Of a stretch of 64,000 bases of DNA, positions 14,199 through 62,500 are shown piece after piece. Position 1 is the first letter of the stretch. Each line of letters starts with the position of its first letter. The notes beneath the pieces were generated by a model. That model was given only the letters and a program-made list of their open reading frames with translations, searched no databases and was not told the DNA's origin. A program made the translations under genes and the position numbers. Source of the stretch: a virus; IMG/VR virus record IMGVR_UViG_3300025168_009799, positions 1 through 64,000 of that record. The stretch is one strand, 5' to 3'.

Positions 14199-15817
14199 TG
14201 AGGAATAAAAAATCATATAAACAACCAGTTGTTATTCGTGAACAGGCCACTTTAGATTTGCCAGATTTTACGAATTTAACAAATTCTTATAAATTTAAAA
14301 ATGGAGGAGTCAAACAATATAATCTTGGAGGGGCTGATGAGAATGAAGGTACTGGAACTGATCCAACATCAATTGATCAGCAGTGGGCTGATTTTCTAGA
14401 TAACAATCCAGATTACGTTATGGGAGGTGGAGGTAAATTTGTATTAGGTGCTAGTGGACAATGGATAAAGAATCCAACTTTTGTAAGAGATATTCCTATT
14501 AGAATAGATCCAGATACTGGTAAGCAGATAGATTATGATATAGATGCTTATATTGCAGAACAAGATGAGACATTACAGAATCAATTAAAAGAAATAAATT
14601 CTCATGATGCGTTTTGGAGATCAGAACAAAGAAGAATGCTAGCTGCTTCAAAAGGCCATCCTACAAGTCCAGGGTGGAATCCAGGATTGAGAGTAGGTCC
14701 GTATCAGGTTACTCAAGGAATGGAGCAAGACAGATTAAATTCTATGCCTACTTTTCACCCCCAATATGATGCAGGAAAGACTGAAAGTTATAATCAATAT
14801 TATTCAGATTTATTAGATAAAAAAGACAAGCAACAAGCAATAGGTCGTAAATCTATGGCTGAATCATCTACATTTGCAAGTAATCTAATTAAGAGTATTA
14901 TAGATCCTTTTTGGAATGCACCAGCAAGACTCGTTACTTATGGACTAAATGAAGCGTTTGGAGATGGTACACAAACAGTTGACTGGAGATCACCAATGTT
15001 TAGAAACAACAGTTATGATGAGCATGGAAATATGATAGATAAAAATCCAAGTACAGCTCAAGTTATTCCGGGATACGAAAATAGAAATAGCTTTGCAAAC
15101 TTTCTATTAAATGCAGCATCAGATCCTTTGTCATTTTTAGGAGGACGTGGGGTTTATAAAAATCTACCGAAAGCATTTCAAACAACTATTAAAAACGCTC
15201 CTAGAACTTTAACAACGAAAACGTATAACCTGGGTAAGAATACTCTAAAAAGTAATAAAGATGGGTTTGTTAAAGGCACAAATCAGATATTGAATAGACA
15301 GCAAGCGAAAGGATCTTATTTTAATCCTTGGTCTCGTACTGCTGCAGGGCTTGGAAATACAGCGTATTATGGTGCTAAAACATCAGCTGTGCCATCGGCT
15401 TTTATATCAACTGCAGATTTTATAAATCGAGGAATGTTCAGTAAAGATGGAGTAACTGGAGATGATGCTTTAAATACTACATTTGATGTACTAGACGCAG
15501 GAATGCCATTTAGTAGTAGTATACGAGATATGTGGAAAGGATCTGTAAGAGATTATCAATCAGGTTCATTATTATCATCTGAGGCTACTCCCTATTATAT
15601 AAGTGGTCTAACAAAACATAGACTTATTAACCCTCTGGCTAAAGGATATAGAACTGTTTCTGGTTATCTAGGAAATCCATTTGCGGATGACGGAAGTATA
15701 CGATACTATAATGGTTCAGAAGACGAAGAATTCGAGATACCAGCTGATAATACACTTATAAATGGTACGGATGGAGGTGAAATACCTCTATCTAACACAC
15801 AAATACCTACCCTCTAA
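14198..15817 (+). CDS. Hypothetical virion/cargo-like protein
   Basis: 539 aa, GTG start, no Cys; FKNGG and YNLGG motifs; AASDPLSFLGG segment. Confidence 0.7.
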   Translation: MRNKKSYKQPVVIREQATLDLPDFTNLTNSYKFKNGGVKQYNLGGADENEGTGTDPTSIDQQWADFLDNNPDYVMGGGGKFVLGASGQWIKNPTFVRDIPIRIDPDTGKQIDYDIDAYIAEQDETLQNQLKEINSHDAFWRSEQRRMLAASKGHPTSPGWNPGLRVGPYQVTQGMEQDRLNSMPTFHPQYDAGKTESYNQYYSDLLDKKDKQQAIGRKSMAESSTFASNLIKSIIDPFWNAPARLVTYGLNEAFGDGTQTVDWRSPMFRNNSYDEHGNMIDKNPSTAQVIPGYENRNSFANFLLNAASDPLSFLGGRGVYKNLPKAFQTTIKNAPRTLTTKTYNLGKNTLKSNKDGFVKGTNQILNRQQAKGSYFNPWSRTAAGLGNTAYYGAKTSAVPSAFISTADFINRGMFSKDGVTGDDALNTTFDVLDAGMPFSSSIRDMWKGSVRDYQSGSLLSSEATPYYISGLTKHRLINPLAKGYRTVSGYLGNPFADDGSIRYYNGSEDEEFEIPADNTLINGTDGGEIPLSNTQIPTL

Positions 15818-41291: not shown

Positions 41292-42161
41292 ATGGCAATA
41301 TATAAACACGTATCAAGTAAAACAATAATAAGAAAAATCTTTAGAGATTTAAATGTATCTGGTGATAATTGGATAGAGGATTCTATTGAATGGATGGGAG
41401 AAGCTTTAGAACATATTGGAGCTAGTCCTCAGTTATGTCAGAAAGGTACTACAATATCTATAGCAGATTATACTGGAGCATTGCCATCTGACTTATACTA
41501 TATAAACCAAGTGGCTGTAAATAATACTGTAGGGTCTGCTACGAAGTCTGAACTAACAGATGTATTAGCTAAGATTAAAGTTATAGAAAATAAACTATCG
41601 GCAGATCCTAATCAAAATTTTTCTACAGATTTAAGAAAATTAAATGAAAGAATGTTAGTACTGCAAAATATTTATCTAACTGGCAGTCAAGGAAGTTTAG
41701 TACCTATGGCTTATTCAACAGATACATTTCCTACAGCATTACATTGTGACGATTGTGTAAATGAAAAAGCTATAAGTGATGATACATATTTTATTAACTC
41801 TGGGCATATAAAAACGTCTTTTGAAAAAGGAACAGTTTGTTTAAGTTATACAGCTTTTCCAATAGATGATGATTGCTATCCTATGGTTCCAGATGACATT
41901 AGTTTTAAAGAAGCTTTATTTTGGTATATAGTTAAAAAATTAGTATTGAGAGGTACGAGACTACCAACCCAATTAGGGTATGAAATGGCAGAAGGGCAGT
42001 GGAAGTATTACTGTTCTCAAGCAAGGAATGCAGCTAACTATCCAGATATAGATAGAATGGAATCATTTATGAATCAATGGGTTAGATTAATCCCAGAAAT
42101 TAGTCGTGCAGATAATGGATTTAAACATTTAAATGTACGAGAAAGTTTAGATAGAAGCTAA
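41292..42161 (+). CDS. Tail tubular / ring protein
   Basis: IEWMGEALEHIG, IKTSFEKGTVCLSY.AFPIDDD.YPMVPDD, W.YY..QA. Confidence 0.8.
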   Translation: MAIYKHVSSKTIIRKIFRDLNVSGDNWIEDSIEWMGEALEHIGASPQLCQKGTTISIADYTGALPSDLYYINQVAVNNTVGSATKSELTDVLAKIKVIENKLSADPNQNFSTDLRKLNERMLVLQNIYLTGSQGSLVPMAYSTDTFPTALHCDDCVNEKAISDDTYFINSGHIKTSFEKGTVCLSYTAFPIDDDCYPMVPDDISFKEALFWYIVKKLVLRGTRLPTQLGYEMAEGQWKYYCSQARNAANYPDIDRMESFMNQWVRLIPEISRADNGFKHLNVRESLDRS

Positions 42162-45100: not shown

Positions 45101-47524
45101 AAAAATATTAGACCTGTAAGTTATTTAAGTCTTGTACATTATACCAGGAACCAAGTATTTTCTACTATGCATAATTTAGGGGTTGTACATAATACTGCCC
45201 ACTGTGCTATGGAATTTATTCCATCTGAAGAAAATAGAATGATTAGAAATAGGGCTATTACTTATCAGGGAGCCGCTGATTTAATAGGAGCTAAAGGACT
45301 AGGATTTACACAAGAAGATATTATAGGTAGTGGATTTGATAATGAAGCTATGGGTAAAACAAATGCTGGTTATACTTCTATAACTTGTCAAATTTCTCCG
45401 AATGGTACAGAAAATTCTGGGTCCGAAATTTATTTTACACATCCTTCTACGGGCCAGTGTAAAGGTTGGGAAGAACATCCAAGTTATAATCAGGATTGGT
45501 TAGCTTACAATACATGGAGTTTTGATCCTTATACTAGAAATTATCCAATGATGTTTTCACAAACGCTTCAAGCAAATGGTGCTGAATCTATGACTCCAAT
45601 AGTTAATCTATCTAGTTTAAAATATAATGTTTATTCAAGATGGAATACGCAAAAATTAATTCAGACTGGATATTATTGCCCTATAGATAATTTTGATCCT
45701 AGAAATCCTACAGCTACATTTAGTACGAAAGATATTTATCCAGACGGTATATTTGGAGGAGACACATTTATATGTAGAGTTGGGTATAGAGCAGGACATA
45801 TGGATAATTATGGAGAGGCATACGCAAGAACTACCGGTTCTAATGTTATTAGAACTAACATCTACTCTTCTTTTTCTGCTTCACATAAGAGAGATAATCC
45901 ACCTCCTTTACAATATAAGGCATTATACTGTACTATGGCTGAAAGTACGGATAATATCAATTTTAGATATGAGCATTATGATAACTCTAATAACTTATAT
46001 AAAGCTTGGCCTGCAAGTTCTGCCCAAGCGGTAGTGAATCAGCCTTTAACTTTTGATTTAAATAATCAAGTAGGACATGCTTATGATGAAGTTTATTCAG
46101 CAGATAATGATGTAAGGTATGCGATAGCGTTTCCATTTATAGATGATACAATGGATAAGTTCCCAAACAGAATTATCAAATCAAATGTTGATGCTCAAAC
46201 TAAAATAGACGCTAATAGAGTATTCTTAGCGAATGATTATAAAGATATTAGTACTAGTAAAGGTCCTATTAATGAGCTTTTAAATTTATCTAATTTGTTA
46301 TATATACATTGTGATAGAAGTTTATTTGCAACTAAAGGTAAACAGACGGTTCAGCTTACTGATACTTCAGAAGCATTTATTGGAAGTGGTGATATTTTTC
46401 AACAAGAGCCTCAAGAAGTAATATCTGTTGATCATGGATATGGAGGAAGACAATCTATTTTTGGAGGAGTCTCTACACGTTATGGATATTTCTTTATGGA
46501 TAAAGAAGCTGGAAAAGTATTTCAGTTTGATGGAGAGTTAAATGAGATTAGTAAATTAGGATTAGAAAAAACATTTAAGGAATTAGCAGGAAGTCCTTTA
46601 TCTGTTTATGGAGTTCCAGCAGATAGTCCTCTTAGGGGCTTTGGAGTTTCTTTAGGATGGGATCCTAAATATGATAGACTTTTAGTTACTATAAATACCG
46701 TGTCTCCTACTGCAACATTTCTTACTGGCATATCATATAATGGACCTCTTGGTCCTAATAATGGAGACGGCGCTATAGCCTATTATCCTCCCACTGGGTA
46801 CTTTCGTGTATTTAGGAATGATGGTGGAGTTCCTAATTGGATTACTTTAGAATATTCTAATACTGGATATTTTAATCAAGATCATATAACAATCTCTTAT
46901 TATCCAGAATTTAAAATGTGGGGATCTTTTCATGATTACCATCCTTTTATGTATTTTAATAACTACACAAAATTCTTTAGTCATCCTGGAGTATCTGGAT
47001 CGTTCTTTGATCATTTAGCTGATACTATCCCTGGAAACTTTTATGCAGGACAAACACCTGCTGTTCAAGGAATATTTGAGTTTGAATATGTAGTTAATCC
47101 ACAACCAGAACAGAGTAAATTATTTTATAATGTGCATTATGATGTACAAGTAAAAAATTCAGCAAATAATCCTGAACATGATTCTGGATTTGACAGTTAT
47201 TATGTTTATAATTCTAAACAAATCTGTCAGGAGACACAAATTTTACACTTAGTAAATGCTAGAGTTGTAGACACTTCTGTTATATTAAATCAGTTGAGAG
47301 ATGATACTGATTTTACTACTGGAAATCTACCAAATTTTACCATGTTTACTAATAATTTAACTGGAGCTATAAACAATTCTTATATAGATGCAGCCAAAAC
47401 AGATCTTAATCGTAGTCGTTTTGTAGATAAATATTTAATTATACGATTAAAATATAGTAATTCTACAAATAATTTATTAAATTTGTACTCTGCAAATGCA
47501 GGGTATCGTCAAAATCACAGATAA
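42161..47524 (+). CDS. Tail stabilisation / muzzle protein
   Basis: 1787 aa; KGINRD...YRFANNA...NESGT, YWTDNNN.P, YTREEVYAFYI, GGDTFI, WGSFHDYHP. Confidence 0.8.
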   Translation: MKYLKGINRDVGPTAQPEGTYRFANNAVLKKDYGAIANESGTNEFPSTVYIIGECSLDNGDFILFEADQDPTGDHYINRYDKNGVFLNTVLHRNDLNFSTLFPIKAVSKRVADEYIVYWTDNNNKPAVLNIARQETANTTVPFNDSLIYGSIIKDINNLSLMSYSGSVPVITSATVEEGGNLQTGTYYLALAYMGLDRVTTNYVTISNAVYVPGSKDTYAWTNIVGSPSGIPSNKQIVFHVGNLNTTFEFLQPVILRRAGGGYDAFKLTVQTIEAAVDIVTFSGSENYSTASPAEVIIDYPVYDKAKALEIVDSVLYLGNLEGSLDVGYQPYANAIELEATTKIIHNYEDIDFVESTLEDNVVKPLNKNSYRHAHMSYMYKGYTREEVYAFYIVWVLKDGRETYGYHIPGRTSSNNDNELDLVTNPTTVLEKQVPNVFNFHMNSWIDNSNYVNNMGYWENQDERYPISDNYETLDVSVVGNPIASSKPDLAGEAVRHHHFPSNNTCDDNTNDLNPIISNSVSSSFTTGVDIVDEVAPVNWNYAADPTNIDVRDSFGQTPPMGNRIEISTLDGLIFFEPRNIADDATGATPYYSGPQLPPGSSTDWGTRLAGQDWIEFFDWQTGNASPTADETNFLNAMNAVGPFHYGGLSGSTPPGSGPLQCNSFVHGWTDPYGFMYSAPGTTPAQIVANPQPHHWALNALGSASWCAPGAWGVHTQGFAYKPGVNDHNTCSWGGGTMNGLWPYGVPSCPVVSAPPCACGSPTSGTPYHGRKEKAIYYKQWYNGPMPNYLQYDISFKIRWVGSGVAQTSTTYTSPGPAPSDLNILGFHLNNVKVPSDIADTVQGFRVYRAERDWKNKRVWGQSPAISMRAVGGYDPNQGGGSNVGVVSPWPKDETQTDFIPSAAGGNTMLPYKTSGSPPKGAEYGDMRTVWVRTANPESLEQTYQSDKGNPTFFGDPAQYDIKYPNAGFALYDFTLLRQLKNIRPVSYLSLVHYTRNQVFSTMHNLGVVHNTAHCAMEFIPSEENRMIRNRAITYQGAADLIGAKGLGFTQEDIIGSGFDNEAMGKTNAGYTSITCQISPNGTENSGSEIYFTHPSTGQCKGWEEHPSYNQDWLAYNTWSFDPYTRNYPMMFSQTLQANGAESMTPIVNLSSLKYNVYSRWNTQKLIQTGYYCPIDNFDPRNPTATFSTKDIYPDGIFGGDTFICRVGYRAGHMDNYGEAYARTTGSNVIRTNIYSSFSASHKRDNPPPLQYKALYCTMAESTDNINFRYEHYDNSNNLYKAWPASSAQAVVNQPLTFDLNNQVGHAYDEVYSADNDVRYAIAFPFIDDTMDKFPNRIIKSNVDAQTKIDANRVFLANDYKDISTSKGPINELLNLSNLLYIHCDRSLFATKGKQTVQLTDTSEAFIGSGDIFQQEPQEVISVDHGYGGRQSIFGGVSTRYGYFFMDKEAGKVFQFDGELNEISKLGLEKTFKELAGSPLSVYGVPADSPLRGFGVSLGWDPKYDRLLVTINTVSPTATFLTGISYNGPLGPNNGDGAIAYYPPTGYFRVFRNDGGVPNWITLEYSNTGYFNQDHITISYYPEFKMWGSFHDYHPFMYFNNYTKFFSHPGVSGSFFDHLADTIPGNFYAGQTPAVQGIFEFEYVVNPQPEQSKLFYNVHYDVQVKNSANNPEHDSGFDSYYVYNSKQICQETQILHLVNARVVDTSVILNQLRDDTDFTTGNLPNFTMFTNNLTGAINNSYIDAAKTDLNRSRFVDKYLIIRLKYSNSTNNLLNLYSANAGYRQNHR

Positions 47525-47525
47525 T

Positions 47526-48902
47526 ATGAAAACAAAAAACTTTAAATATGAAAAAGGAGGCGCAGGTGCAAGCATGTCTAGATATAAGAAACCTAAAAAA
47601 TATCAGACTGCTGGAGTATATGGCCAATCTCAACTAAATCTAAACCCTAATAACGCTGGTACTCAACAGTTTAGGTATACTTCTCAAGATCCCAATGCTA
47701 TGGCTCTTGCACAACAAGGAGCCGATCAAGCAGGTCAAGACTATGATCAAGGTATCCAAGAGCATGATATGCAAATGGAGCTAGACGCAAAGAAATCTCA
47801 GATGGCTAATACAGCTGTTGGTACTGGATTAACCTTGGCAAATAAAGGAAATATGACAGCTAATTTTGCTGCTCAGAAGGCTTTTAAACAGCAAGTTTCT
47901 GATCAAATGGCTACAGGAATGTCAAAAAAGATGGCAACTGACGCTGTACTACAAAGCGGTGCAACAAAACCAATGGCTCAAGGACTATTAGGTACAGGAA
48001 CAGCTACAGTAGGTATGTCTAATGCTATTAATGTAGGTTCTTTAATTGGATCTGTAGGAGGAAACTACTTAGAAGGAGCTTGGTCAGATGATGATGCTAC
48101 TACTTATACTACAAAAGAAGGTATAGCAGGAGCTATAAAGACTGGATCTACTTGGGCTGGATACGGTAATATGATATTACCAGGAGTAGGAGGACTAGTT
48201 GGAGGTGTAGCAGGAGTTGTGTCTAGTATCTTTACTGGTAAAAGTAAAGCAAGAAAAGCTAAAAAAGAGCGTAAAAGACTAGAACGAGAGTTTAAAGATA
48301 GACAAGGGCAATTTACGCAGAGGATAGGACAACTTAGATCTCAGGGTCAGCAGCAAGTTGGAGCTATGATGGGTAATAAATTAGGAGGTCCTAGACAATA
48401 CGCTCATGGAGGACGTAGATTATATGGAAATGGAGGACCACCAATGGTATATGGAAAGGGAGGAATGCAAATGGTATATGGAGATGGAGGACCCCCAATT
48501 GATCCACCACCAATGGAGCAAGATACCACTCGTGTTGAATTAACAGCACAGCAAGAATATCAGCGATGGTTAGAAATGCAAAGACAGTTAGAGATGCAAA
48601 AATATATGGAATCAACAATGAGGCAGACTGCTGATAACGAAAGGCTAATGCCAATGCCAATGCCTCCTCCTGCTGCCGCAGATAATACTTATGTACCACC
48701 ATCAGCTGAGGAGTTAATGGAGCTGCAAAAGTTGTATCAGATGCAAAAGACGACGGGTCAGTCAGGTAAGATGCAACTTGGAGGAATTCAAGCTATACCT
48801 GAAGAACAAATGGTTACAATGCAGCAATATCAACAACCTATGCAAGGTATGCAACCAATGAATACTATGCCTTTTCTTAGAGGAGGATTTAAAAGATATT
48901 AA
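47526..48902 (+). CDS. Gly/Gln/Met-rich cargo (ejection/pilot-like) protein
   Basis: ATG at 47526 preferred; glycine-zipper ILPGVGGLVGGVAGVVS followed by a basic coiled coil; many xxGG motifs; no Cys. Confidence 0.7.
   Translation: MKTKNFKYEKGGAGASMSRYKKPKKYQTAGVYGQSQLNLNPNNAGTQQFRYTSQDPNAMALAQQGADQAGQDYDQGIQEHDMQMELDAKKSQMANTAVGTGLTLANKGNMTANFAAQKAFKQQVSDQMATGMSKKMATDAVLQSGATKPMAQGLLGTGTATVGMSNAINVGSLIGSVGGNYLEGAWSDDDATTYTTKEGIAGAIKTGSTWAGYGNMILPGVGGLVGGVAGVVSSIFTGKSKARKAKKERKRLEREFKDRQGQFTQRIGQLRSQGQQQVGAMMGNKLGGPRQYAHGGRRLYGNGGPPMVYGKGGMQMVYGDGGPPIDPPPMEQDTTRVELTAQQEYQRWLEMQRQLEMQKYMESTMRQTADNERLMPMPMPPPAAADNTYVPPSAEELMELQKLYQMQKTTGQSGKMQLGGIQAIPEEQMVTMQQYQQPMQGMQPMNTMPFLRGGFKRY
48421..48501 (+). 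repeat. Three 27-bp in-frame tandem repeats encoding Y-G-x-G-G units
   Basis: TATATGGAAATGGAGGACCACCAATGG / TATATGGAAAGGGAGGAATGCAAATGG / TATATGGAGATGGAGGACCCCCAATTG. Confidence 0.9.
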
Positions 48903-48903
48903 T

Positions 48904-51528
48904 ATGAATACTAAAGCATTACTAAAAATACTAGAGAAAAGACTTAAAGAGAAAGAAGTTACTAAACTTCCTGGAGGAGAAATGAAAACGATTCCTGGTT
49001 CAGACGCTGTAGAGTTTAAAGGACAATCACATGAGCAGGGGGGTATTAAATTAGACAAACTTACTGAAGTAGAAGGAGGAGAAACTATGGATAAAGTAGT
49101 TTTAAAAGATGGTGTTCCTAATGACTATTTCTTTTCAAAACATTTAAAACATAACGGTAAGAGCTTTGCTCAATTACATAAAGAGATTTTAAAGTTTGGA
49201 GGTGCAAAATCACAGCAAAAGATTCAAAATTTAGCTAGGCTTCAAGAGCAGAGAGCGGGCCGAGATGTGAATATAGTTTTAGGTGATAAAGTTATGTATG
49301 GTAATGATGCAGGAAAGTATATGAGTAATTATGTAGCACGAAAAGGAGGAGTAAGAAAATACCATATGGGAGGTAAAAAAGAACATGGGGTGAATACACC
49401 TATGCCTCTACTTCAACACACGCATACAAGTTATAATAAGAATCAGACAGACACAGAATGGGAAGAAGGGTCATCTCTTTATAATGGAGAATCAGCAACA
49501 GAATCTATTATTCTTTCTAGACCGGTATCTATAGATGATTTACAAAAGTTTTCAGAGGCAGAACTAAATGAATTTATAGAAAAGGAAGGTAAGTGGGTTC
49601 CAAAAAGATTTGAAGCAAAGTACCCAGAACTTACTCAAAAAATATTAGACGGAAAAAGAAAAGCTCGACAGGATGCAATAGACTATAATTTTAATCAGGA
49701 TATGCAAAGAACTCAAGCAATGAGTGTAGCGCAAACAGATAATACTACAGTGGTTAATAATCAACTTTATCCGGATGGTCAGGGTGGTTATACTAGCATG
49801 AATGACGACTATGAGGAGCCGTCTTATAATCATATAGAAATTCCTCATCAAAATGTAGATCTAGATTACAATCCACTGCAAAATGCTACTCTTGTACTAA
49901 AGAATGCTCAAATTAGAAATAATAATATTAATAATAAGAATAATACTACAAAAAAGAAAAATTCTGGAAGTGGAAGTGGGAGCGGAAGTGGAAGTGGAAG
50001 TGGAAGTAATAATAACTCTACTAAGAAACAGGATTATAAATATACAGGATTTGAGAATAGAGCTGATGGTAATAGATTTAGAAACTGGTTAAATTTAAAT
50101 TATCCAGAATTTGCTTCAGAAATTGATTTAGATAAAAAAGGAAGTCATACTAATAAGTATATTAAAAAGGGTTTAGAAAAATATGGAGATGAGTATACTG
50201 CATATTTATCTAACGAAGATAATTATGGAGGAGATACTTTTGATGTAGATGAAAATAGAGACGGAGATGATCTTAAGGTTAATCAGTTTGGATATACTCA
50301 AGACGAGTGGTATAACTTACCTATGGCAGAAAAAAATGCATACTTCGCTGGAATAGATAATGAAAGGGTTGCAGAAGATGAAAACTATATAGAAGATGCT
50401 AATAAAGCTTACCACTTAGATAAGTTTGATCAACAATCTAATTTATCTAATGATTGGGTAGACGTTGTAATGAAAGACGGTAGAAAAGTTAGAGTCCCTC
50501 GAGATAAGAAAGATGCTTATGTAGGTAATGATAATTATGATGAGGCTGCTTCACATTGGACTGATAACTTATCACAAAGAGAATCGGTCACTGGATTAGG
50601 TGAAGGGAGTTACACAGATGACGAAGGAAACTTGTGGGAGAAAGACAAAGCAGGTAGATGGAGAGTGAAGTATTCAAAACCAGGTACTGAGTTTGGAGAC
50701 GATGAAAAAGTTTTAGATGATGACTGGACAACACTGGAAGCTAGAAATTATCCAGGAGAAATGAATTTAACTCCTATGGGAGATCAAACTGATGGTACAA
50801 ATGATAAAAAGGGTAAAAATAGTATGTGGCAAAAAACTAAAAACTTTGTTGGTAATACAGATATAAAAGGTTTATTAGTTGATTTAGCACAATTCTTACC
50901 AGTACATATGGCAATGAAAGATAAGCCAGGGCATATGAAACAATATGCTCCAATGCCTGAAGTAAGACTAAATAGAGTTAAATTTAATGAAGCTAGATCT
51001 AAGAACTCTGCAGATTTTAATGCATTAAATTTAGGTATAGATAATGCAGGACATGATCCTAGTTCTTTTGCTAAAAAGATGGCCTTATATGGTAAATCAC
51101 AACAAGCTGATTTAGCTATTGATGGGACAGAAGCTAGAGAGAATGCAAAAATAGACGCAGCTGAAGCAGGAACAAACGTCGGTATTAGATCAGAAAATCT
51201 TAAAAATAGATTATATGTAGACGAGTTTAACTTGGCTTCTGACTCTGCTACATTTGATAGAAAGTTAAATGCTATGAGCTCAGCAGTTCAGAATTTAGGA
51301 TTGCTAAGAGAAAGAGCGTTACAATATAAAGGACAAAAATTAATGGCGGATGCTGTTGGTAGAGACGGTATTAATACAAGACAAAACTTACGTGGAGACA
51401 TGTTAACTAAATATTCACATAGAACTATTAATGGTATGAAATTCTCTGAGATGAATGACGCTGATCAAAGTTCTTTTATTGCTAATGTAACTAACAATAA
51501 TCTGAATGTAATGGATTTGTTCGATTGA
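48904..51528 (+). CDS. Cargo protein with HExGG/EVEGGE module and possible peptidoglycan-binding-like segment
   Basis: 874 aa, no Cys; GQSHEQGGI...EVEGGET; (SG)n linker; GNRFRNWLNLNYP...LDKKG. Confidence 0.7.
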   Translation: MNTKALLKILEKRLKEKEVTKLPGGEMKTIPGSDAVEFKGQSHEQGGIKLDKLTEVEGGETMDKVVLKDGVPNDYFFSKHLKHNGKSFAQLHKEILKFGGAKSQQKIQNLARLQEQRAGRDVNIVLGDKVMYGNDAGKYMSNYVARKGGVRKYHMGGKKEHGVNTPMPLLQHTHTSYNKNQTDTEWEEGSSLYNGESATESIILSRPVSIDDLQKFSEAELNEFIEKEGKWVPKRFEAKYPELTQKILDGKRKARQDAIDYNFNQDMQRTQAMSVAQTDNTTVVNNQLYPDGQGGYTSMNDDYEEPSYNHIEIPHQNVDLDYNPLQNATLVLKNAQIRNNNINNKNNTTKKKNSGSGSGSGSGSGSGSNNNSTKKQDYKYTGFENRADGNRFRNWLNLNYPEFASEIDLDKKGSHTNKYIKKGLEKYGDEYTAYLSNEDNYGGDTFDVDENRDGDDLKVNQFGYTQDEWYNLPMAEKNAYFAGIDNERVAEDENYIEDANKAYHLDKFDQQSNLSNDWVDVVMKDGRKVRVPRDKKDAYVGNDNYDEAASHWTDNLSQRESVTGLGEGSYTDDEGNLWEKDKAGRWRVKYSKPGTEFGDDEKVLDDDWTTLEARNYPGEMNLTPMGDQTDGTNDKKGKNSMWQKTKNFVGNTDIKGLLVDLAQFLPVHMAMKDKPGHMKQYAPMPEVRLNRVKFNEARSKNSADFNALNLGIDNAGHDPSSFAKKMALYGKSQQADLAIDGTEARENAKIDAAEAGTNVGIRSENLKNRLYVDEFNLASDSATFDRKLNAMSSAVQNLGLLRERALQYKGQKLMADAVGRDGINTRQNLRGDMLTKYSHRTINGMKFSEMNDADQSSFIANVTNNNLNVMDLFD
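49963..50007 (+). repeat. GGAAGT hexamer run encoding an (SG)n linker
   Basis: tctggaagtggaagtgggagcggaagtggaagtggaagtggaagt. Confidence 0.9.
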
Positions 51529-51542
51529 TAAAATAATTAAAT

Positions 51543-54125
51543 ATGGCAACTAAATATAGTAAAATAGGTATAGTAAAACCTTATGTTCCTCGATTTGTAG
51601 ATGACGGGTCTGTAAAGATAAACACGTTATTATCAGAAAGATATGACAATGCAATTGCAAATGAAAGTCTTTTAGAAGACGCTTATAATCAAATGCAAGT
51701 GGCAGACTTTGAGGGCGATCAAGAACTAGCAGGAGAACTAAGAACTAGAGTAGATAAAGAATTAAATTCATATAAAAGCCGAGGTGATTATGAAAATTTA
51801 GGTAGAGCAGTAAACAGGTCTGTTCAAAATTTTAAAACAGATTATAAACCTTTAATGGATAATTATAGTGCTTGGTCTGGATATAAACAAGAGTTACAAG
51901 GAAGAGAAGATTTAACTCCAGCTCAGAAAAGTAAACGAGTACAAGCTGCTAAAGACGTGTATAGTAAAACTGATGGTTTAAAAAAAGATAAAGACACTGG
52001 TTTATGGGAAGGATTCTTTAGTGGTAGACAATGGGCTAAAGGGTTAGAGCTTACAGAAATGGCTGGTGATATTGCTAAAGATTTAAAAACAGAGTTAGTA
52101 GCTAGCGAAGGTTTTACAGAAGACCCTGCTACAGGCATTCTTATGAAAGTAGGTACTAGTAATGAATACTTAACTCCTCAGATGATTTATGATAGAGCTA
52201 TGATTATGTTATCTGGTAGAGAAGATGTTAAAGCATTCTTACAAGATGAAGCATATATAACTTCTTCAGAATATACTCCAGATATGAAAGATGCTTTTGA
52301 AGGAGAGTCTTTAACAGACTTTAATAGCACAGTAGCACAATTAATGGAGAATGGAACATTTGAAGATCAGACTGAAGCAGAGGCAGCTGTATACGGACAA
52401 TTAGCTTCACAAGGAATGTTAGACACAGCACTAAGAGCTGCAGGTGAGGTATACCAAGTTAAGAAGTTTAAACAAAGTATAGACGCACTTCCAGAATATA
52501 TGCAATATGCTCATAATAGTAAATACGCTCAAAGTAGAAATGTTATCTCAGCTACTACAATATCTCAAGATGAATTTGTAGATTTAGGATTAATACAAGC
52601 TGCTAATAGTGAGTCTATGGATTTAGCGGAGAATACAGGAAATATTTTAAATTTAGCATTAGAGGAGTTTGGAAAAGATACAGGCTTAGATGCAGGTACT
52701 GCTAGATTAGTTTTAGAGAATTATAATCAACTAATGATGAGTAATCCTGAGTATACTACAGCGCCTCCAGAGGAGATAGCTGGAGTTATAGGAGTTACAC
52801 CTCAACAAGTGTATCGTATACAAGAGTATGCTCCAGACATAAATAGATTGATTAATGATCACGCAACGTATCAAAAAAATGCATCTCAAGGTAGTAACTA
52901 TCAAAATGAGTTATTTACTTTAGCTAAAGAGAATGGATTTGATATAGACGGTTACATACAAGAAATGTGGGACAGTACACCATCTACTTGGACATCAAAT
53001 GTGTTTGGAGAATCGAACAGTAGTGGTTTTGATATGCGTAAAGCAGAAGGAGCTGATATAGGGTGGTTAGGTACATCTATGCCTTGGAACTGGGACGAGT
53101 TAGAAAAGATGGAGTATGAAGATTTTAGAGAAATAGTTCTAACTGGAAAGTTACAAGATGGTCATGATTTAGGAGATGGAGGGTGGAATGAAGGAGACTT
53201 AGGTATGCTTAATCAGAAACTAACTACAGGTGAGGGAGTTGCTAGAGATATTAGATATAGATTAATGAATAAAGTTAATGAGATAGTACAAGCTAATCCA
53301 GACGCTTTATCAGGATCTGTGATTACTAATGCAGATAAGAAATCTCCTCTTAATAAACTTAATGTAGATATAACTACAGCTTTTAATGCTAATAAAAATG
53401 GATATACAGTTAAAGATATATACGGTAAAGATATTACTTTTGCAGATCACTTAGTAGAGAATGGAGTATTAAACGATTATGGAGATATTAATAAGTGGGA
53501 TATGGAAGAAGCATGGCCTGCTACTGGAGGATTTGTAAGTGATAATCCTTTAATGATGGTAAAGCTGAAAAATAATGAGAATGGAGAAACCATGACTACT
53601 ACTATGCCTATGCAGCAATTACAAACTGAAACTTATAAAAGTGCAATGATTACAGCATTAGATCATGAGAGTAATCCTGTAAGCAGACAACGTATGTTAC
53701 AATCTTATGGACATAACATGGTTAATGTAGGAGGACAAAATGATTTTAATAATAGTAATAAATTAAATATTAGTACTTTCTTTAATAGCGCTTTTCAACC
53801 AGATGTAGGAATTCAAAATGAAGTGGGCGTAACTTCTGAGCGAGCTTTAAAAATTGATTTACCTATATTTAATGGTGGAGCAAGTTTAAGAGTAGGTAAA
53901 AGGAAAATGCAATCAGGTCAGATGTATTATGATATTAAGGTAGCAGATCATAATACGGGAGAGTTTTATGATCTAGGAGATCAAAGTGCTTTAGGCCCGG
54001 AAATAGTACAGTCATTACAGATGTTAGATAATAGACTATTAAGTAAGTCGTATAACAATGAAGCAATGTTATATGAGTTAGTTGGAGCATTAAATTATAT
54101 TTCTGATAAAGGAATAATTAGATAA
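51543..54125 (+). CDS. Cargo / ejection protein
   Basis: 860 aa, no Cys; N-terminal PYVPRFV then a helical region; precedes the giant cargo genes. Confidence 0.7.
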   Translation: MATKYSKIGIVKPYVPRFVDDGSVKINTLLSERYDNAIANESLLEDAYNQMQVADFEGDQELAGELRTRVDKELNSYKSRGDYENLGRAVNRSVQNFKTDYKPLMDNYSAWSGYKQELQGREDLTPAQKSKRVQAAKDVYSKTDGLKKDKDTGLWEGFFSGRQWAKGLELTEMAGDIAKDLKTELVASEGFTEDPATGILMKVGTSNEYLTPQMIYDRAMIMLSGREDVKAFLQDEAYITSSEYTPDMKDAFEGESLTDFNSTVAQLMENGTFEDQTEAEAAVYGQLASQGMLDTALRAAGEVYQVKKFKQSIDALPEYMQYAHNSKYAQSRNVISATTISQDEFVDLGLIQAANSESMDLAENTGNILNLALEEFGKDTGLDAGTARLVLENYNQLMMSNPEYTTAPPEEIAGVIGVTPQQVYRIQEYAPDINRLINDHATYQKNASQGSNYQNELFTLAKENGFDIDGYIQEMWDSTPSTWTSNVFGESNSSGFDMRKAEGADIGWLGTSMPWNWDELEKMEYEDFREIVLTGKLQDGHDLGDGGWNEGDLGMLNQKLTTGEGVARDIRYRLMNKVNEIVQANPDALSGSVITNADKKSPLNKLNVDITTAFNANKNGYTVKDIYGKDITFADHLVENGVLNDYGDINKWDMEEAWPATGGFVSDNPLMMVKLKNNENGETMTTTMPMQQLQTETYKSAMITALDHESNPVSRQRMLQSYGHNMVNVGGQNDFNNSNKLNISTFFNSAFQPDVGIQNEVGVTSERALKIDLPIFNGGASLRVGKRKMQSGQMYYDIKVADHNTGEFYDLGDQSALGPEIVQSLQMLDNRLLSKSYNNEAMLYELVGALNYISDKGIIR

Positions 54126-59533: not shown

Positions 59534-62500
59534 ATGGCGAATTGTATAAATAGTATAGATAGTTTAGTTGAAAGAAGGGTACAAATGTTATCCTATATTC
59601 AAAACAGATTTGGTAAAGATGTTTCTGTTACTATCAATAATTATGTTAAAAGGGTGGGTAATGAGAATGTACATGGTATGTTTAAAAACATGGCATTTAC
59701 TTTATCTACTTTAGGTGAACCAGGTGTAGAGTATCATGAAGCTTTTCATGGATTCTTTACTATGTATTTAACAGATGGACAGCGCGCGTCTTTATTAAAA
59801 CAGGCAGCACAAAGATATGGAGAGCCTAGCCAAGTAGAGCTAGACGCTGTAAATGGAGTAAGAGAATTAGCTCTAGAAGAAAAAATGTCAAATGCATTTC
59901 AAGAGTATTCATTAACTGAAGACCCTAAAGGTATACCTGCTAAGATAGCTAAGTTTTTTAAAGACTTATGGAATTTAATTAAGAGTATGATTTCTGATTC
60001 TATAGGAATTAATCAAGCATTTTCTATATTAGAATCAAATAATATTCCTATGAAGTTCAAACGGAATATGCACATGTTTAGAGGAGGGAAGCCTGCTATG
60101 TACTTAAAGAAACGTGTGGATTATACAACACAAGAAACTAAGGATACAACTTTATTTATTAGATCTAGATTTATGAATTTCTGGAGGTCATACCAACAAC
60201 AGGCTAAGCAGGATCCATTTAAGGTAGCTATTAATAGACAAATGGATAAAGTTAGAACAGCATTTCCTGCTATGACTAGATCAGAATCTTTAGTTAAAGT
60301 TTTAACGTCTCATACTAAGAATACGTTTTTAAGAAACGCTTGGTCATATACTGAGAAAGCTGAAGGAAAAGATGCTGGAACTAAAATTGATTTAAAGCAA
60401 GCAAGAGAATTACACGGACTAAGAAGAGAAGGAAAGACGGATGAGTATATGAATAAACTTTCAGAATATGGAATTCAAGAGCGTGCAGCATTTGGGTGGT
60501 CTCCTAACCCAGGTAATAGAGTTAGAATGGATAAGACTACTACTAATTTTCAACACTTTATTGATATATATGAAAATTGGGGAGATACTATTCAGACCGC
60601 TGAAATTACAGATGATAACGGAAAGAAGAAAGAAGTTAAGATTAATACTATAGACCAAGGATGGTGGACTGGGGTAGAAGAACTCTTACCAGATGTAGGA
60701 TTAAAGATTAGACATAGAGAAGTAACTGAGGGATTAGAAGAACTACCATTGGACCCAACTGAGACAGACTCTCCTAGTCCTGAAGGAGGAGAAAGGATTT
60801 ATGAATTAAGCCATTATGAACAAGATAGTTGGAAAGGTATGTCAAAAGAGTTACGTATGTACTTTGAAGATATATTAGATTACTCATCAGAGATTCCAAA
60901 CCATTTACAAGTACATAGACCTCATGGAGGTAAACATGTATATGAAGTATTAAAATTAGCTTTATCAAATACTACAAGTTTTACACAAATGAAAGACGTG
61001 CTAAAAGAGAAAGCTACATTACATGGTCCTAATAGTATTTATGGTATAATGTTTTCTCGTGTTACTGGCATAGGATTAGAAGGACGAGTAGAGAATATTA
61101 CTATGCAGCTTCCTGCTACATTAGTATCAGATTTTCATGGATTATTTAGAAATACTACTAAAGAATTTAAATCGGTAAAGGTAAATAGAAGTAAGCGTAA
61201 AGACGCGCAAGGCATGTTGCCTGCACCTGAAGTAGTAGTTTATAACCCAGATCAGAATTCAATTATTAATAATTTAGTTAATAATCAATATAGAAAAAAT
61301 ATTATTGATGTAACTGGAGTTAAAACTGAAAGAGCTTTATACAATAAGGCTGTTACTGTAGAGCCTGGAACCAAAGATCAGAGTATAGAATATATACCTA
61401 TTAGAGAGAATCTACAAGACTTTCAAGCCCACGTTAAAGATTTAAATTCTTTAACTTCAATGCGAGGAGAGCTTAATGAGTCCGAGCTGGTTGAGGCTAC
61501 AAGAGCCTTTAGAAAAATAGTAACTTATTTAGGAGTTGATTTACCAGGTATATCTCCACAAGACCAAGATACTGTTCTTTACGATATAGTAAATCAAGGG
61601 GTATCTATACCAAATAGATTTGGTAAGTATACTACATATCAAGGCAAAAACTTTTTTAGATATTTTTTAAAAGGAAGCAAGACAAAATCAAAATCTAATT
61701 TATTAACTGTAAGTGCGCAGATTATAGATCAAAAAGGCGAACCTAAGAAGCCTACGTTTGAGCCATTTTCTAAAGGAGCCTCAAGAGGACTCTTAATGAA
61801 TTTAGCAGCTTTTCAAAAAGCTTTAGGTATAAATGGAGAACCTAATTATGTTAATGAGTTTGGTAAATCTATTTATAAAATTAACATGCCTACTGCTTTT
61901 GATAATACTGTGAATAGAATTAAGAGTGGTAAAATATTTGATGCAGACCCTAACAATATAGAATATGGTAATTTAGACAAAGATCCTTTGTTCGTACCAG
62001 TGCAAAAACCGGTTGACGGTACAAGCTCTTGGGCTAATTATGTAAGCCCTTTATATATGTCTATGATTAATAACACTGACGGTTTAAGAGAGAAGTTAAG
62101 TCTAGAAAATATTAGTGCTTTTACTTTAGATTCAAATAGAGGATATAGTGATTTTGGCCAGATGAGTGAGAGCGATGAATATTTATTACGTTTATTTCTA
62201 TTTCAAAAAGGTACTCATTCGGATAACTTAACTAATATGATGATCGATACTCAAGGGGATAGAGGAGTATCTAGTACTATGGGATTACCTAGAGTAATAT
62301 TAGAAGGGGAAGGGACTAGAAGCCTTGATAATTCTATGTACGGCTCTAATGGATTTAAAACTCTAACAGATTTTAGTAATGCTTATATTATTCAGGATAT
62401 CGTTAAGATGCAACAAGCTGACTCGCATGTAGAACTTGCGGAAGATGGCGAATCTTTATTTGATACTTATCATTATACTAACCCTAGTGATAAAAAAGCT

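What the first reader, a model, noticed from the sequence alone, without database searches (positions are those of the whole stretch)
47526..49380. Recurrent Phi-x-x-G-G motif in cargo proteins: possible processing or capsid-targeting signal
Seen: KYEKGG, KYQTAG, NKLGG, QYAHGG, LYGNGG, VYGKGG, VYGDGG, KMQLGG and FLRGG in 47526-48902; LKFGG, ARKGG and KYHMGG in 48904-51528; MRNGG (14151-65), KFKNGG and QYNLGG (14291-14332) in the two genes beside the portal; and MFRGG (~60074) right after the zincin domain of the RNAP polyprotein. Motifs cluster at termini and apparent domain boundaries, often with basic neighbours, and one has been amplified by a 27-bp tandem duplication. Established: adenovirus protease cleaves (M/I/L)xGG-x, and ASFV and ubiquitin/SUMO proteases cleave after GG. 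Inference: a di-glycine-directed maturation or packaging-signal system for internal virion proteins. No canonical prohead protease is visible in this window.
Basis: partly seen in the sequence, partly recalled or inferred. Interest (0 to 1): 0.75.

Follow-up and report, generated by a model that had tools for sequence, protein, structure and literature searches.

The report
Gly-Gly joint tags in crAss cargo
A short peptide (bulky residue, two residues, Gly-Gly, then basic residues) recurs at the ends and module borders of proteins that this marine crAss-like phage probably packs and injects, and it looks more like an uncut docking joint than a protease site.

Summary
The strings are all present at the stated coordinates. 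The enrichment is real but narrower than claimed. It holds for the 468-aa protein P1, at 47496-48902 (7 copies against 1.07 in shuffles), and for the two portal-adjacent proteins. It does not hold for P2, P3 or the RNA-polymerase proteins. MFRGG after the zincin-like domain is not conserved in 3 of 3 relatives.

P1 plus P2 is a split counterpart of crAss001 cargo protein C1 (gp45). In 37 family representatives the tag lies near the N-terminus in 20, and a GG lies in the last 25 residues in 25. It brackets the portal-bound-type domain in six lineages. AlphaFold2 puts it in coil below pLDDT 50.

I found no peptidase. Proline follows GG in 4 of 13 copies, and copies repeat every 7-10 residues.

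My reading is an uncut docking or hinge tag (0.5). Cleavage is unlikely (0.1) but untested.

This scan has already noted the same motif on at least 37 other genomes. I found no published description.

The parts
47496..48902 (+). P1, 468 aa. This is the N-terminal (tail and membrane) part of a split C1/gp45-like cargo protein and holds nine motif copies. An alternative start is at 47526.
   Evidence: The ORF is and the sequence. The family profile against crAss001 gp45 gives hhalign probability 67.5%, E 5e-5. The gene follows the muzzle-like gene.
47544..47621 (+). N-terminal tags KYEKGG (residues 17-22) and KKYQTAGVY (residues 34-42), each after basic residues.
   Evidence: Invariant Y18, G21, G22, K34-Q37, A39-Y42 in 4 of 4 close relatives. 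Distant relatives carry [KR][KR]Y..GG(M)Y at the same place. The segment is coil, with residues 20-22 and 35-39 listed below pLDDT 50.
48366..48497 (+). Central tag array, residues 291-334: MMGNKLGGPR, then QYAHGG, LYGNGG, VYGKGG and VYGDGG with Pro-rich spacers.
   Evidence: The relatives have one or two copies here. Most of 297-329 is listed below pLDDT 50 and the stretch is coil.
48421..48499 (+). 27-bp tandem repeat (2.9 copies, 78% matches) that multiplied the Y-G-x-G-G unit.
   Evidence: Tandem Repeats Finder.
48771..48785 (+). MQLGG tag, residues 426-430.
   Evidence: The GG is kept in P0002 and P0003.
48873..48899 (+). C-terminal tag FLRGGFKRY, followed by the stop codon. It corresponds to the tag that precedes the portal-bound-type domain in fused relatives.
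   Evidence: P[FY]..GG.K(L)RY* in 4 of 4 relatives that reach the end. Fused forms read SFYAETGGLRVPGG and similar before the domain.
48904..51528 (+). P2, 874 aa. This is the C-terminal part of the split C1-like cargo protein.
   Evidence: P2 residues 13-191 match the middle of five fused relatives, E 1e-23 to 6e-29 against a 12-sequence database.
48961..49287 (+). Portal-bound-type domain of P2 (about residues 20-128). It contains LPGG, HEQGG, VEGG and LKFGG as parts of the fold.
   Evidence: hhalign of the domain profile against crAss001 gp45 440-545 gives probability 51%, E 1.6e-4. Against crAss002 gp30 95-183 it gives 70.6%, E 3.9e-5. Pfam crAss_CARG1 does not hit.
49333..49380 (+). Post-domain tags VARKGGVRKYHMGGKK (P2 residues 144-159).
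   Evidence: The same place in relatives reads IA[RK]YGG[VI][RK]. Short-form relatives end in VARKGGMRMGMPRYGYAA*. It scores 14.8 with a matrix trained only on distant relatives.
14151..14180 (+). C-terminal tag MRNGGPRRKF of the 545-aa protein encoded after the portal gene.
   Evidence: [MFL]R.GG[PV]R.K is kept in 4 of 4 close sequences.
14291..14332 (+). N-terminal double tag KFKNGGVKQYNLGG of the next, 539-aa protein.
   Evidence: It is kept in 4 of 4 full-length relatives. Residues 1-73 fall below pLDDT 50 in a poor model.
53895..53936 (+). Possible degenerate copy GKRKMQSGQMYYDI in P3 (51543-54125).
   Evidence: Score 13.0 with the matrix from distant relatives. Its conservation was not tested.
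60074..60088 (+). MFRGG after the HEAFH (zincin-like) segment. I judge this a chance match, not part of the feature.
   Evidence: Not kept in 3 of 3 relatives: QKFVGP in two and no GG in the third.

Best explanation
The motif is an uncut joint and docking tag. It is a short disordered peptide made of an aromatic residue or Met, two variable residues, a Gly-Gly kink, and then basic and often aromatic residues. It marks every module border of cargo protein C1.

Here C1 is encoded in two genes, P1 and P2. The tags sit at these places:
- the N-terminus, after a basic leader;
- after the glycine-zipper membrane hairpin and its basic helix;
- on both sides of the portal-bound-type domain;
- the extreme C-terminus.

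The same kind of tag caps the facing ends of the two proteins encoded next to the portal gene.

In crAss001, C1 runs as one thread from the tail barrel through the portal to a domain bound on the portal inside the head. I infer that the tags act as flexible anchors or hinges. They would let each module dock on the symmetric inner surfaces of tail, portal or head, or on DNA through the basic flanks, and then slip out in order at ejection. Because each module keeps its own tag, genes can be split or fused at a tag without loss.

Shown here: the motif, its positions, its conservation, its predicted disorder, and the split and fused forms. Inferred: binding, the partner, and the absence of cutting.
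For: Positions and conservation:
- The close P1 family keeps the N-terminal, central and C-terminal copies.
- Of 37 representatives from a search of 1.84 billion proteins, 20 have [YF]xx[GA]G in the first 70 residues and 25 have GG in the last 25. In the other 78 ORFs of this genome the figures are 3 and 8.
- Y at -3 of GG occurs in 39 of 232 GG sites in 35 family proteins, a 4.7-fold enrichment.
- A matrix trained only on 43 copies from 31 distant relatives finds 5 hits of 10 bits or more in this genome, against 1.0 expected. All five lie in P1, P2 or P3.

Tags on both sides of the portal-bound-type domain:
- They are present in crAss001 gp45, crAss002 gp30, Fpv1 gp31, the window, G004 and five fused marine forms.
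- The crAss001 model of that domain starts at residue 425 (PMC10172136, section 10). In the gp45 sequence this is A-F-G-G-W.

Disorder:
- The tag stretches are coil in the AlphaFold2 model of P1. Most of their residues are listed below pLDDT 50: 20-22, 35-39, most of 297-329, and 421-468.

Unrelated carriers:
- The two portal-adjacent proteins keep their tags in all close relatives.
- In G004 a non-homologous 680-aa portal-adjacent protein carries KRNGGLKYEEGGLKYDEGGPKKK just before a PG_binding_1 domain (Pfam E 3.7e-7). It ends in EEGGLRKKKK*.

Split and fused forms:
- The genes break at tags.

Against cutting:
- No peptidase was found.
- Pro follows GG in 4 of 13 window copies and in 7 of 64 family copies.
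- 12 of 33 neighbouring copies lie 7-10 residues apart.
Against: - No binding was tested and no partner is identified.
- Within the three close full-length P1 sequences, tag residues are no better conserved than other disordered residues (16 of 42 against 45 of 144, p=0.46).
- The matrix from distant C1 relatives scores the portal-adjacent copies low (3.7 and 2.4 bits). Their membership of the same class therefore rests on resemblance and on their own conservation.
- In crAss001 the aromatic residue often sits directly before the GG (AYGG, AFGG) rather than at -3, so the motif is loose.
- The large RNA-polymerase cargo has no tag, so it cannot be a general loading signal.
- Homology of P1 and P2 to gp45 is moderate only (hhalign probabilities 51-71%), and Pfam crAss_CARG1 does not hit.
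Confidence: 0.5

Rival explanations
1. The tags act after ejection, not in the particle. C1 and the portal-adjacent proteins leave first. The tags then bind a repeating target in the host envelope (peptidoglycan, membrane surface or a periplasmic protein), or stick to one another to build the trans-envelope channel.
For: P1 has a glycine-zipper hairpin typical of membrane insertion. Bayfield et al. expect gp45 to help form the channel (PMC10172136, section 11). In G004 a tag cluster sits directly before a peptidoglycan-binding domain. Tandem copies with variable number suit avidity binding to a repeating target.
Against: The tags also bracket the domain that, in crAss001, is bound to the portal inside the head. 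N4 ejection proteins, which do the analogous job, have few GG (1, 3 and 5 in gp51, gp52 and gp53, and 6 in gp50) and no terminal copy. No host partner is known.
Confidence: 0.2
2. The tags are passive hinges. They are Gly-Gly kinks with a nearby bulky residue, kept only because the thread must bend and pass the narrow portal and tail channel. They have no specific partner.
For: The tags lie in predicted coil. Their wording is loose, with the aromatic at -3 in marine forms and at -1 in crAss001. Copy number varies among close relatives. The conservation test in close relatives is not significant.
Against: A plain hinge would not need a conserved Tyr or basic flanks, and would not need a fixed place at the extreme ends of proteins, where no bending is required. 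The N-terminal wording K-x-K-Y-x-x-GG-M-Y persists at about 20% overall identity.
Confidence: 0.15
3. The tags are cleavage sites of a Gly-Gly-directed maturation protease, phage or host. Leaders and tails would be trimmed and modules released.
For: The positions resemble propeptide and polyprotein junctions. Adenovirus protein VI, a membrane-lytic internal protein, is trimmed at both ends at xGG-x sites (recalled, not from a call). Nothing examined here excludes cutting at the N-terminal copy alone.
Against: No peptidase family appeared in 46 ORFs by Pfam. PF00770 and PF02902 gave no six-frame hit in the complete genome. The bulky residue is at P5, not P4. Pro is at P1' in 4 of 13 copies, and proteases of this kind are known not to cut before Pro (recalled). 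Spacings of 7-10 residues would give tiny peptides. The text searches of the two crAss001 papers found no mention of cleavage or a protease. The virion gel methods list bands of about 150, 270 and over 300 kDa, which would fit uncut giant cargo, but I could not see the band assignments. The HExxH of the zincin-like segment is HEAFE in one relative.
Confidence: 0.1

Closest known systems
Cargo protein 1 (C1, gp45) of Bacteroides phage crAss001 (PDB 7QOG and four further entries; Bayfield et al. 2023, PMC10172136)
   Same: The gene sits directly after the muzzle gene. It has a basic leader, a glycine-rich membrane hairpin, a basic helix, a long linker and a portal-bound-type domain. Aromatic-GG peptides occur at the N-terminus (IFDTGG), before and after the portal-bound domain (AFGGW, FAYGGD) and at the C-terminus (EYTGGTKK...).
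   Different: Here the protein is split into two genes right after a tag. The aromatic residue is mostly at -3 rather than -1. The sequence match is weak (hhalign probabilities 51-68%) and Pfam crAss_CARG1 does not hit. My text searches of the paper for cleavage and protease terms, and the two sections I read, gave no mention of the motif.
Terminal targeting peptides of packaged proteins: the T4 capsid targeting sequence and the encapsulin cargo-loading peptide (recalled, not from a call)
   Same: These are short terminal peptides on flexible linkers that address proteins to the inside of an HK97-fold shell. Encapsulin peptides are also Gly-containing, with a hydrophobic anchor and basic residues.
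   Different: The tags here are also internal and tandem. They are absent from the largest cargo, the RNA-polymerase proteins. No shell binding is shown. The T4 sequence is removed by a prohead protease, and none is found here.
Adenovirus protease (adenain) sites (M/I/L)xGG-x, and ASFV, SUMO and ubiquitin-type GG cleavage
   Same: Gly-Gly with an upstream bulky residue, in internal virion proteins and near their ends.
   Different: The bulky residue lies one place further out. Pro is frequent after GG. No clan CE peptidase is present in the genome.
Ejection proteins of other podoviruses (N4 gp51 and gp52; P22 gp7, gp16 and gp20)
   Same: Proteins packed in the particle and expelled first to build a channel. 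P22 ejection proteins are recruited by the scaffolding protein (PMC8402733, Fig. 3 legend).
   Different: N4 gp51, gp52, gp53 and gp50 have few GG (1, 3, 5 and 6) and no terminal tag. The P22 proteins were not examined.

Membership tests
crAss001 gp45-type cargo protein C1 (for P1 plus P2) | The gene lies directly downstream of the muzzle gene, after ring proteins R2 and R1. | tested here: met
   R2 (PF25702, 2.7e-36) is at 40125-40814 and R1 (PF24228, 8.2e-59) at 41292-42161. The muzzle-like protein is at 42161-47524 (phrog_15100 1e-39; crAss_MUZ_C weak). P1 and P2 follow.
crAss001 gp45-type cargo protein C1 (for P1 plus P2) | Sequence relation to gp45. | tested here: inconclusive
   The P1 family profile against gp45 114-178 gives hhalign probability 67.5%, E 5e-5. 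The P2 domain profile against gp45 440-545 gives 51%, E 1.6e-4, and against crAss002 gp30 gives 70.6%. phmmer of P2 and the A1 profile against PDB chains found no gp45. Pfam PF25725 crAss_CARG1 gave no hit at E<=1 in the genome.
crAss001 gp45-type cargo protein C1 (for P1 plus P2) | An N-terminal membrane helix followed by a basic helix, and a portal-bound domain further on in one chain. | tested here: met
   The glycine-zipper hairpin and the KARKAKKERKR helix are in P1. Five relatives carry the P1-like and P2-like parts in one chain. In the window the chain is split.
crAss001 gp45-type cargo protein C1 (for P1 plus P2) | Presence inside the virion, in tail and head. | not testable with these tools
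   No particle data exist for this uncultured phage.
Gly-Gly-directed maturation system (adenain or Ulp type) | A clan CE or other maturation protease encoded by the virus. | tested here: not met
   PF00770 and PF02902 six-frame searches gave 0 hits at E<=1 in a genome rated 100% complete. No peptidase family appeared in 46 ORFs by Pfam. ORFs under about 100 aa, five ORFs of 103-119 aa and the last 1308 residues of ORF 59534-67924 were not scanned.
Gly-Gly-directed maturation system (adenain or Ulp type) | The consensus has the hydrophobic residue at P4 and a cuttable P1' residue. | tested here: not met
   The enriched residue is Y at -3 from the first G, which is P5 (39 of 232). Pro follows GG in 4 of 13 window copies and 7 of 64 family copies.
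Gly-Gly-directed maturation system (adenain or Ulp type) | Cleaved products in virions. | not testable with these tools
   My text searches found no mention of cleavage in the crAss001 papers. Figures and supplements were not visible.
Terminal cargo-targeting peptide (T4 CTS or encapsulin CLP type) | A short peptide at a terminus of packaged proteins, on a disordered linker. | tested here: met
   Both ends of P1, the C-terminus of ORF 12561 and the N-terminus of ORF 14198. Family counts are 20 of 37 and 25 of 37.
Terminal cargo-targeting peptide (T4 CTS or encapsulin CLP type) | Carried by the packaged cargo as a class. | tested here: not met
   No enrichment in P3 or the three RNA-polymerase-associated giants. 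crAss001 gp46, gp47, gp49 and gp50 show no terminal copy.
Terminal cargo-targeting peptide (T4 CTS or encapsulin CLP type) | Binds a pocket on the inner shell, scaffold or portal. | not testable with these tools
   Only single-chain folding was available.

The most novel reading that the evidence does not exclude
The tag is a portable connector code of the crassvirus ejectosome. It would be a weakly self-adhesive, aromatic-Gly, kinked peptide with basic flanks, resembling the low-complexity aromatic-rich kinked segments of phase-separating proteins (recalled). Every first-wave ejected module would carry it. Through it, separately encoded modules would be held head to tail as a train and parked on the portal and tail wall. 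Genes could then be cut or joined at tags freely, and ejection order would be written in the chain. Together with the cysteine-tipped junctions noted for the giant cargo of this same genome, that would make the whole cargo one ordered string.
Probability: 0.2. Interest if true: 0.8.

Novelty: new variant of a known kind. Interest (0 to 1): 0.55.

Why it matters
It is not known how crassviruses load, park and expel their internal proteins in order. A 2026 paper on N4 still calls for structures of crassvirus ejection proteins (PMC13434306, Discussion).

A conserved, easily mutated peptide at every module border of the first-ejected protein gives a concrete handle on three questions:
- What holds the thread to portal and tail?
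- What decides ejection order?
- Why are these genes so often split, fused and shuffled?

The tag also offers a practical signature for finding ejected proteins in uncultured Bacteroidota phages. One example is the portal-adjacent protein with a peptidoglycan-binding domain in G004.

Tried and rejected
Searches that found nothing:
- megablast of 47000-52000 and tblastn of P1 and P2 against 50,697 phage records.
- IMG/VR scan with the close-family alignment A1: 140 pattern matches, none confirmed.
- PHROGs and Pfam for P1, P2, P3 and the two portal-adjacent proteins. The only result was a low-complexity Serglycin hit in P2.
- PDB sequence searches with P2 and A1: linker-type low-complexity hits and ribosomal S3 at E 0.2.
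- The A4 profile in three IMG/VR records that hold relatives of the zincin-like segment.
- The A2 and A3 profiles in G004.
- PF25725 in the window's own genome.

Tests that did not support my reading:
- The conservation test in three close sequences was not significant: 16 of 42 against 45 of 144, p=0.46.
- The matrix from distant relatives scored the portal-adjacent copies only 3.7 and 2.4 bits.

Structure and look-alikes:
- The atlas search for ORF 14198 gave scores of 0.86-0.87, below the level of a lead.
- The AlphaFold2 model of ORF 14198 was too poor (mean pLDDT 49.2), so I ran no fold search.
- The P1 model (mean pLDDT 59) was used only for order against disorder.
- Both fold jobs were then spent, so the P2 domain was not folded.

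Readings I rejected:
- A bacteriocin-type double-glycine leader and a BAM beta-signal at the C-terminal Tyr were considered by eye. I dropped both because the spacing of hydrophobic residues does not fit. No tool test was run.
- The TerL hit FGTGGTEG is shared by the window and G004. I take it to be an ATPase motif, unrelated to the tag.

Not visible or not opened:
- Supplements were closed and I did not ask for them. Extended Data Fig. 3 and Table 3 of PMC10172136 and Fig. 3a of PMC6235969 could bear on cleavage. Only their legends or methods text were visible.
- Papers read as passages found by term search: PMC10172136 (plus sections 10 and 11), PMC8402733, PMC6235969 and PMC13434306 (plus its outline and abstract).
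- The claim that the motif is not in print rests on searches 51, 79 and 80 alone.

Full report
CONTEXT

The window is the first 64 kb of an 89,749-base IMG/VR virus record rated 100% complete. It is a crAss-like phage.
- The major capsid protein at 17042-18460 matches Pfam Crass_capsid at 2e-83.
- Tail ring proteins R2 and R1 lie at 40125-40814 and 41292-42161.
- A muzzle-like 1787-aa protein lies at 42161-47524.
- The capsid protein is about 30% identical to those of gut crassviruses and 25% to Flavobacterium phage Fpv1.
- Relatives of the proteins studied come mostly from marine metagenomes.
- A 2230-aa fibre-like protein carries SprB repeats, which points to a Flavobacteriia-type host. That is an inference.

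After the muzzle gene come P1 (47496-48902, 468 aa), P2 (48904-51528, 874 aa) and P3 (51543-54125, 860 aa). Three giant proteins follow: 54131-59533, 59534-67924 and 67941-72317.

The 27-bp tandem repeat is at 48421-48499.

I scored [YFM]xxGG against 20,000 shuffles of each protein.
- P1: 7 copies against 1.07 expected (p=0.00015).
- The 539-aa protein at 14198-15817: 4 against 0.51 (p=0.0017). Two of these overlap in YVMGGGG.
- The 545-aa protein at 12561-14198: 2 against 0.21 (p=0.018).
- P2 (1 against 0.62), P3 (0) and the three giants (1, 1 and 0 against 0.78, 1.30 and 0.40) show nothing.

Of all GG dipeptides, 16 of 49 in these eight proteins have Y, F or M at -3. In the other 71 ORFs the figure is 9 of 100 (p=0.0007). 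The pattern is therefore real. It belongs to P1, one spot in P2 and the two portal-adjacent proteins, not to cargo in general.

The copy after the zincin-like HEAFH segment (MFRGG) reads QKFVGP in two relatives and is absent in a third. I treat it as chance. In that third relative the HExxH itself reads HEAFE.

WHAT ARE P1 AND P2?

A word-index search found three relatives of P1 besides its own record. A profile search of 1.84 billion representatives found 36 proteins at E<=0.001, of 79 to 1233 residues.

Five long relatives (825-1233 aa) match P1 over their first 310-370 residues. They match the first 120-190 residues of P2 directly after that, at E 1e-23 to 6e-29 in a 12-sequence database. 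P1 and P2 are therefore one protein in other lineages.

In another marine crAss-like record, G004, the same split is seen. The order there is R1, muzzle, a 307-aa P1-like protein, an 869-aa protein with the P2-type domain, a 759-aa protein, then a giant.

The link to crAss001 cargo protein 1 (gp45) rests on three things:
- Gene position.
- Architecture.
- Profile comparison. The P1 family against gp45 114-178 gives probability 67.5%, E 5e-5. The P2 domain profile against gp45 440-545 gives 51%, E 1.6e-4, and against crAss002 gp30 95-183 gives 70.6%, E 3.9e-5.

The Pfam model of that domain (PF25725, crAss_CARG1) does not hit this genome, and PDB sequence searches did not reach gp45. The relation is likely but not secure.

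In crAss001, residues 425-552 of gp45 fold into a domain bound to the portal inside the head. Residues 214-245 line the tail barrel. The chain is thought to bridge the two through the portal and to leave N-terminus first (PMC10172136, sections 10 and 11).

WHERE DO THE TAGS SIT?

AlphaFold2 with a 29-row alignment gives long helices for P1 at 66-139, 178-296, 351-384 and 404-419. All tag-bearing stretches (1-60, 297-350, 420-468) are coil. Within them, 20-22, 35-39, most of 297-329, and 421-468 are listed below pLDDT 50.

In the close family the N-terminal K-Y-x-x-GG and KKYQxAGVY are kept, as are at least one central Y-x-x-GG and the C-terminal P[FY]xxGGxK(L)RY*. The number of central copies varies: four or five in the window, one or two in relatives.

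Relatives about 20% identical overall keep the wording [KR][KR]Y..GG(T)MY after a basic leader. Their ends read VARKGGMRMGMPRYGYAA*, ARYGGLKRYI* and similar.

Family-wide counts:
- [YF]xx[GA]G in the first 70 residues: 20 of 37 representatives. GG in the last 25 residues: 25 of 37.
- In the other 78 ORFs of this genome the figures are 3 and 8, and those include the two portal-adjacent proteins.
- Y fills position -3 at 39 of 232 GG sites in 35 proteins, a 4.7-fold enrichment, with K or R enriched at -5, -4, -2 and +3.
- A scoring matrix built only from 43 copies in 31 distant relatives finds five sites of 10 bits or more in this genome, against 1.0 per shuffled proteome. Three are in P1, one in P2 (KYHMGG) and one, degenerate, in P3.

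TAGS BRACKET THE PORTAL-BOUND-TYPE DOMAIN

This holds in every lineage I could read.

| Lineage | Before the domain | After the domain |
|---|---|---|
| Fused marine forms | SFYAETGGLRVPGG | IAAYGGIHKY |
| Window | P1 ends PFLRGGFKRY*; P2 starts 22 residues before LPGG | VARKGGVRKYHMGGKK |
| G004 | KQYMQGGMQQLPGG | AAYGGMRKY |
| Fpv1 gp31 | QFLATGG | VRKYGGG |
| crAss002 gp30 | LMRNGG | KKKLGGLSRKK, about 20 residues beyond the aligned region; C-terminus LFRCGGKKKIA* |
| crAss001 gp45 | NAFGGW | MFAYGGD; C-terminus EYTGGTKKAKGGKVRTKKKK... |

The modelled crAss001 domain begins at residue 425. In the gp45 sequence this is the A of AFGGW. At least one tag therefore lies at the ordered edge of a docked module.

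LKFGG, HEQGG, VEGG and LPGG of P2 are conserved parts of the fold itself. They should not be counted as tags.

THE PORTAL-ADJACENT PROTEINS

The 545-aa protein ends in MRNGGPRRKF..., kept as [MFL]R.GG[PV]R.K in all four close sequences. The next gene starts with ...KFKNGGVKQYNLGG, kept in four of four full-length relatives. The facing ends of two neighbouring genes thus both carry tags, as at the P1/P2 junction.

In G004 a single 680-aa protein occupies the slot between the portal gene and the conserved protein upstream of the capsid gene. That upstream protein is 48% identical to the window's 15894-17006. The 680-aa protein is not detectably related to the window's two proteins. It contains:
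- STYKHGG;
- an internal cluster KRNGGLKYEEGGLKYDEGGPKKK, directly before a PG_binding_1 domain (E 3.7e-7, above the curated cut-off);
- the ending EEGGLRKKKK*.

A peptidoglycan-binding domain in a virion-module protein suggests a protein that works in the periplasm after ejection. This is inference.

The matrix from C1 relatives scores the window's portal-adjacent copies low (3.7 and 2.4 bits). Whether they are the same class of tag is therefore suggested, not shown.

CUT OR UNCUT?

I found no protease.
- 46 ORFs across the whole genome gave no peptidase family in Pfam.
- Six-frame searches with the adenain (PF00770) and Ulp1 (PF02902) models gave no candidate.
- Not scanned: ORFs under about 100 aa, five ORFs of 103-119 aa, and the last 1308 residues of the 2796-aa protein.

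Four further points weigh against cutting.
- The bulky residue is at P5 rather than the P4 of the adenain rule.
- The residue after the Gly run is Pro in 4 of 13 window copies and in 7 of 64 family copies. Met is commonest, at 13 of 64. From recall, proteases that cut after GG do not cut before Pro.
- Neighbouring copies are 7-10 residues apart in 12 of 33 cases. Cutting would therefore give very small peptides.
- My term searches of the two crAss001 papers found no cleavage or protease. The 2018 gel methods list bands near 150, 270 and over 300 kDa, sizes that would fit uncut gp49, gp47 and gp50. I could not see the band assignments.

None of this excludes trimming of, say, the N-terminal leader. 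Only virion proteomics can settle it.

READING

I take the motif to be an uncut joint or docking tag on a disordered thread. It has an aromatic or Met anchor, a Gly-Gly kink and basic flanks, and it sits at each border of a dockable module and at free ends.

The reasons are:
- its positions;
- its disorder;
- its persistence at low overall identity;
- its tandem, copy-variable arrays;
- its presence on unrelated neighbouring proteins;
- the fact that genes split and fuse exactly at tags.

The partner is unknown. It could be the portal, tail rings, muzzle, scaffold, capsid interior or DNA.

Rivals are a role after ejection in the host envelope (0.2), a passive hinge (0.15) and protease sites (0.1).

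One weakness should be stated plainly. In the three close P1 sequences, tag residues are not better conserved than the rest of the disordered parts.

COMPARISON AND NOVELTY

N4 ejection proteins lack the tag. My three literature searches found no description of it.

The scan itself has met the same motif on at least 37 other genomes, and earlier agents also leaned towards uncut joints. Those are notes of the same kind as this one, not independent evidence.

What this window adds:
- the bracket around the portal-bound-type domain across six lineages;
- the split of C1 exactly at a tag;
- the tags on portal-adjacent proteins, one with a peptidoglycan-binding domain;
- the recurrent 'GG plus polybasic tail' at extreme C-termini.

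I did not test it. Together the two would suggest that the cargo is ordered as a chain.

Noticed in passing
window 48900-48906: C1 is split here. P1 stops at 48902 and P2 starts at 48904 in another frame, right after a tag. Five relatives have the two parts fused, and G004 has a similar split at another tag.
   Followed up: yes
L010:17155-19197 (G004): The 680-aa protein encoded after the portal gene of another marine crAss-like phage has a PG_binding_1 domain (residues 432-479, E 3.7e-7). A tag cluster precedes the domain and the protein ends in a GG-polybasic tail.
   Followed up: partly
window 59534-60100; L007: The zincin-like HEAFH of the 2796-aa protein has no Pfam hit. It reads HEAFE in one of three relatives. 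In all three relatives the reading frame continues upstream of this segment with no stop in the stretch examined, so the segment is probably internal to a longer protein there.
   Followed up: partly
window 49917-50007: P2 has an Asn-rich run and a (Gly-Ser)8 linker, seen as tandem repeats of period 3, 6 and 18. This causes a spurious Serglycin hit and PDB linker hits.
   Followed up: no
window 12585-12720: The N-terminus of the 545-aa protein holds a conserved module of about 35 residues (LDNLSF.QAF..SR..LG.G..F.W.G..YTTNY.EEE). The module occurs twice in the distant relative P0047. Its function is unknown.
   Followed up: no
window 53895-53936: P3 carries GKRKMQSGQMYYDI, a possible decayed tag (GG changed to GQ) that scores 13.0 bits.
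   Followed up: no
window 21891-28583: A 2230-aa fibre-like protein has five SprB repeats, a hint of a gliding Flavobacteriia host.
   Followed up: no
window 15894-17006: The 370-aa protein directly upstream of the capsid gene is 48% identical to its G004 counterpart. It weakly matches a 'putative structural protein' of a Bacteroides phage. It is a candidate scaffolding protein, judged by position only.
   Followed up: no
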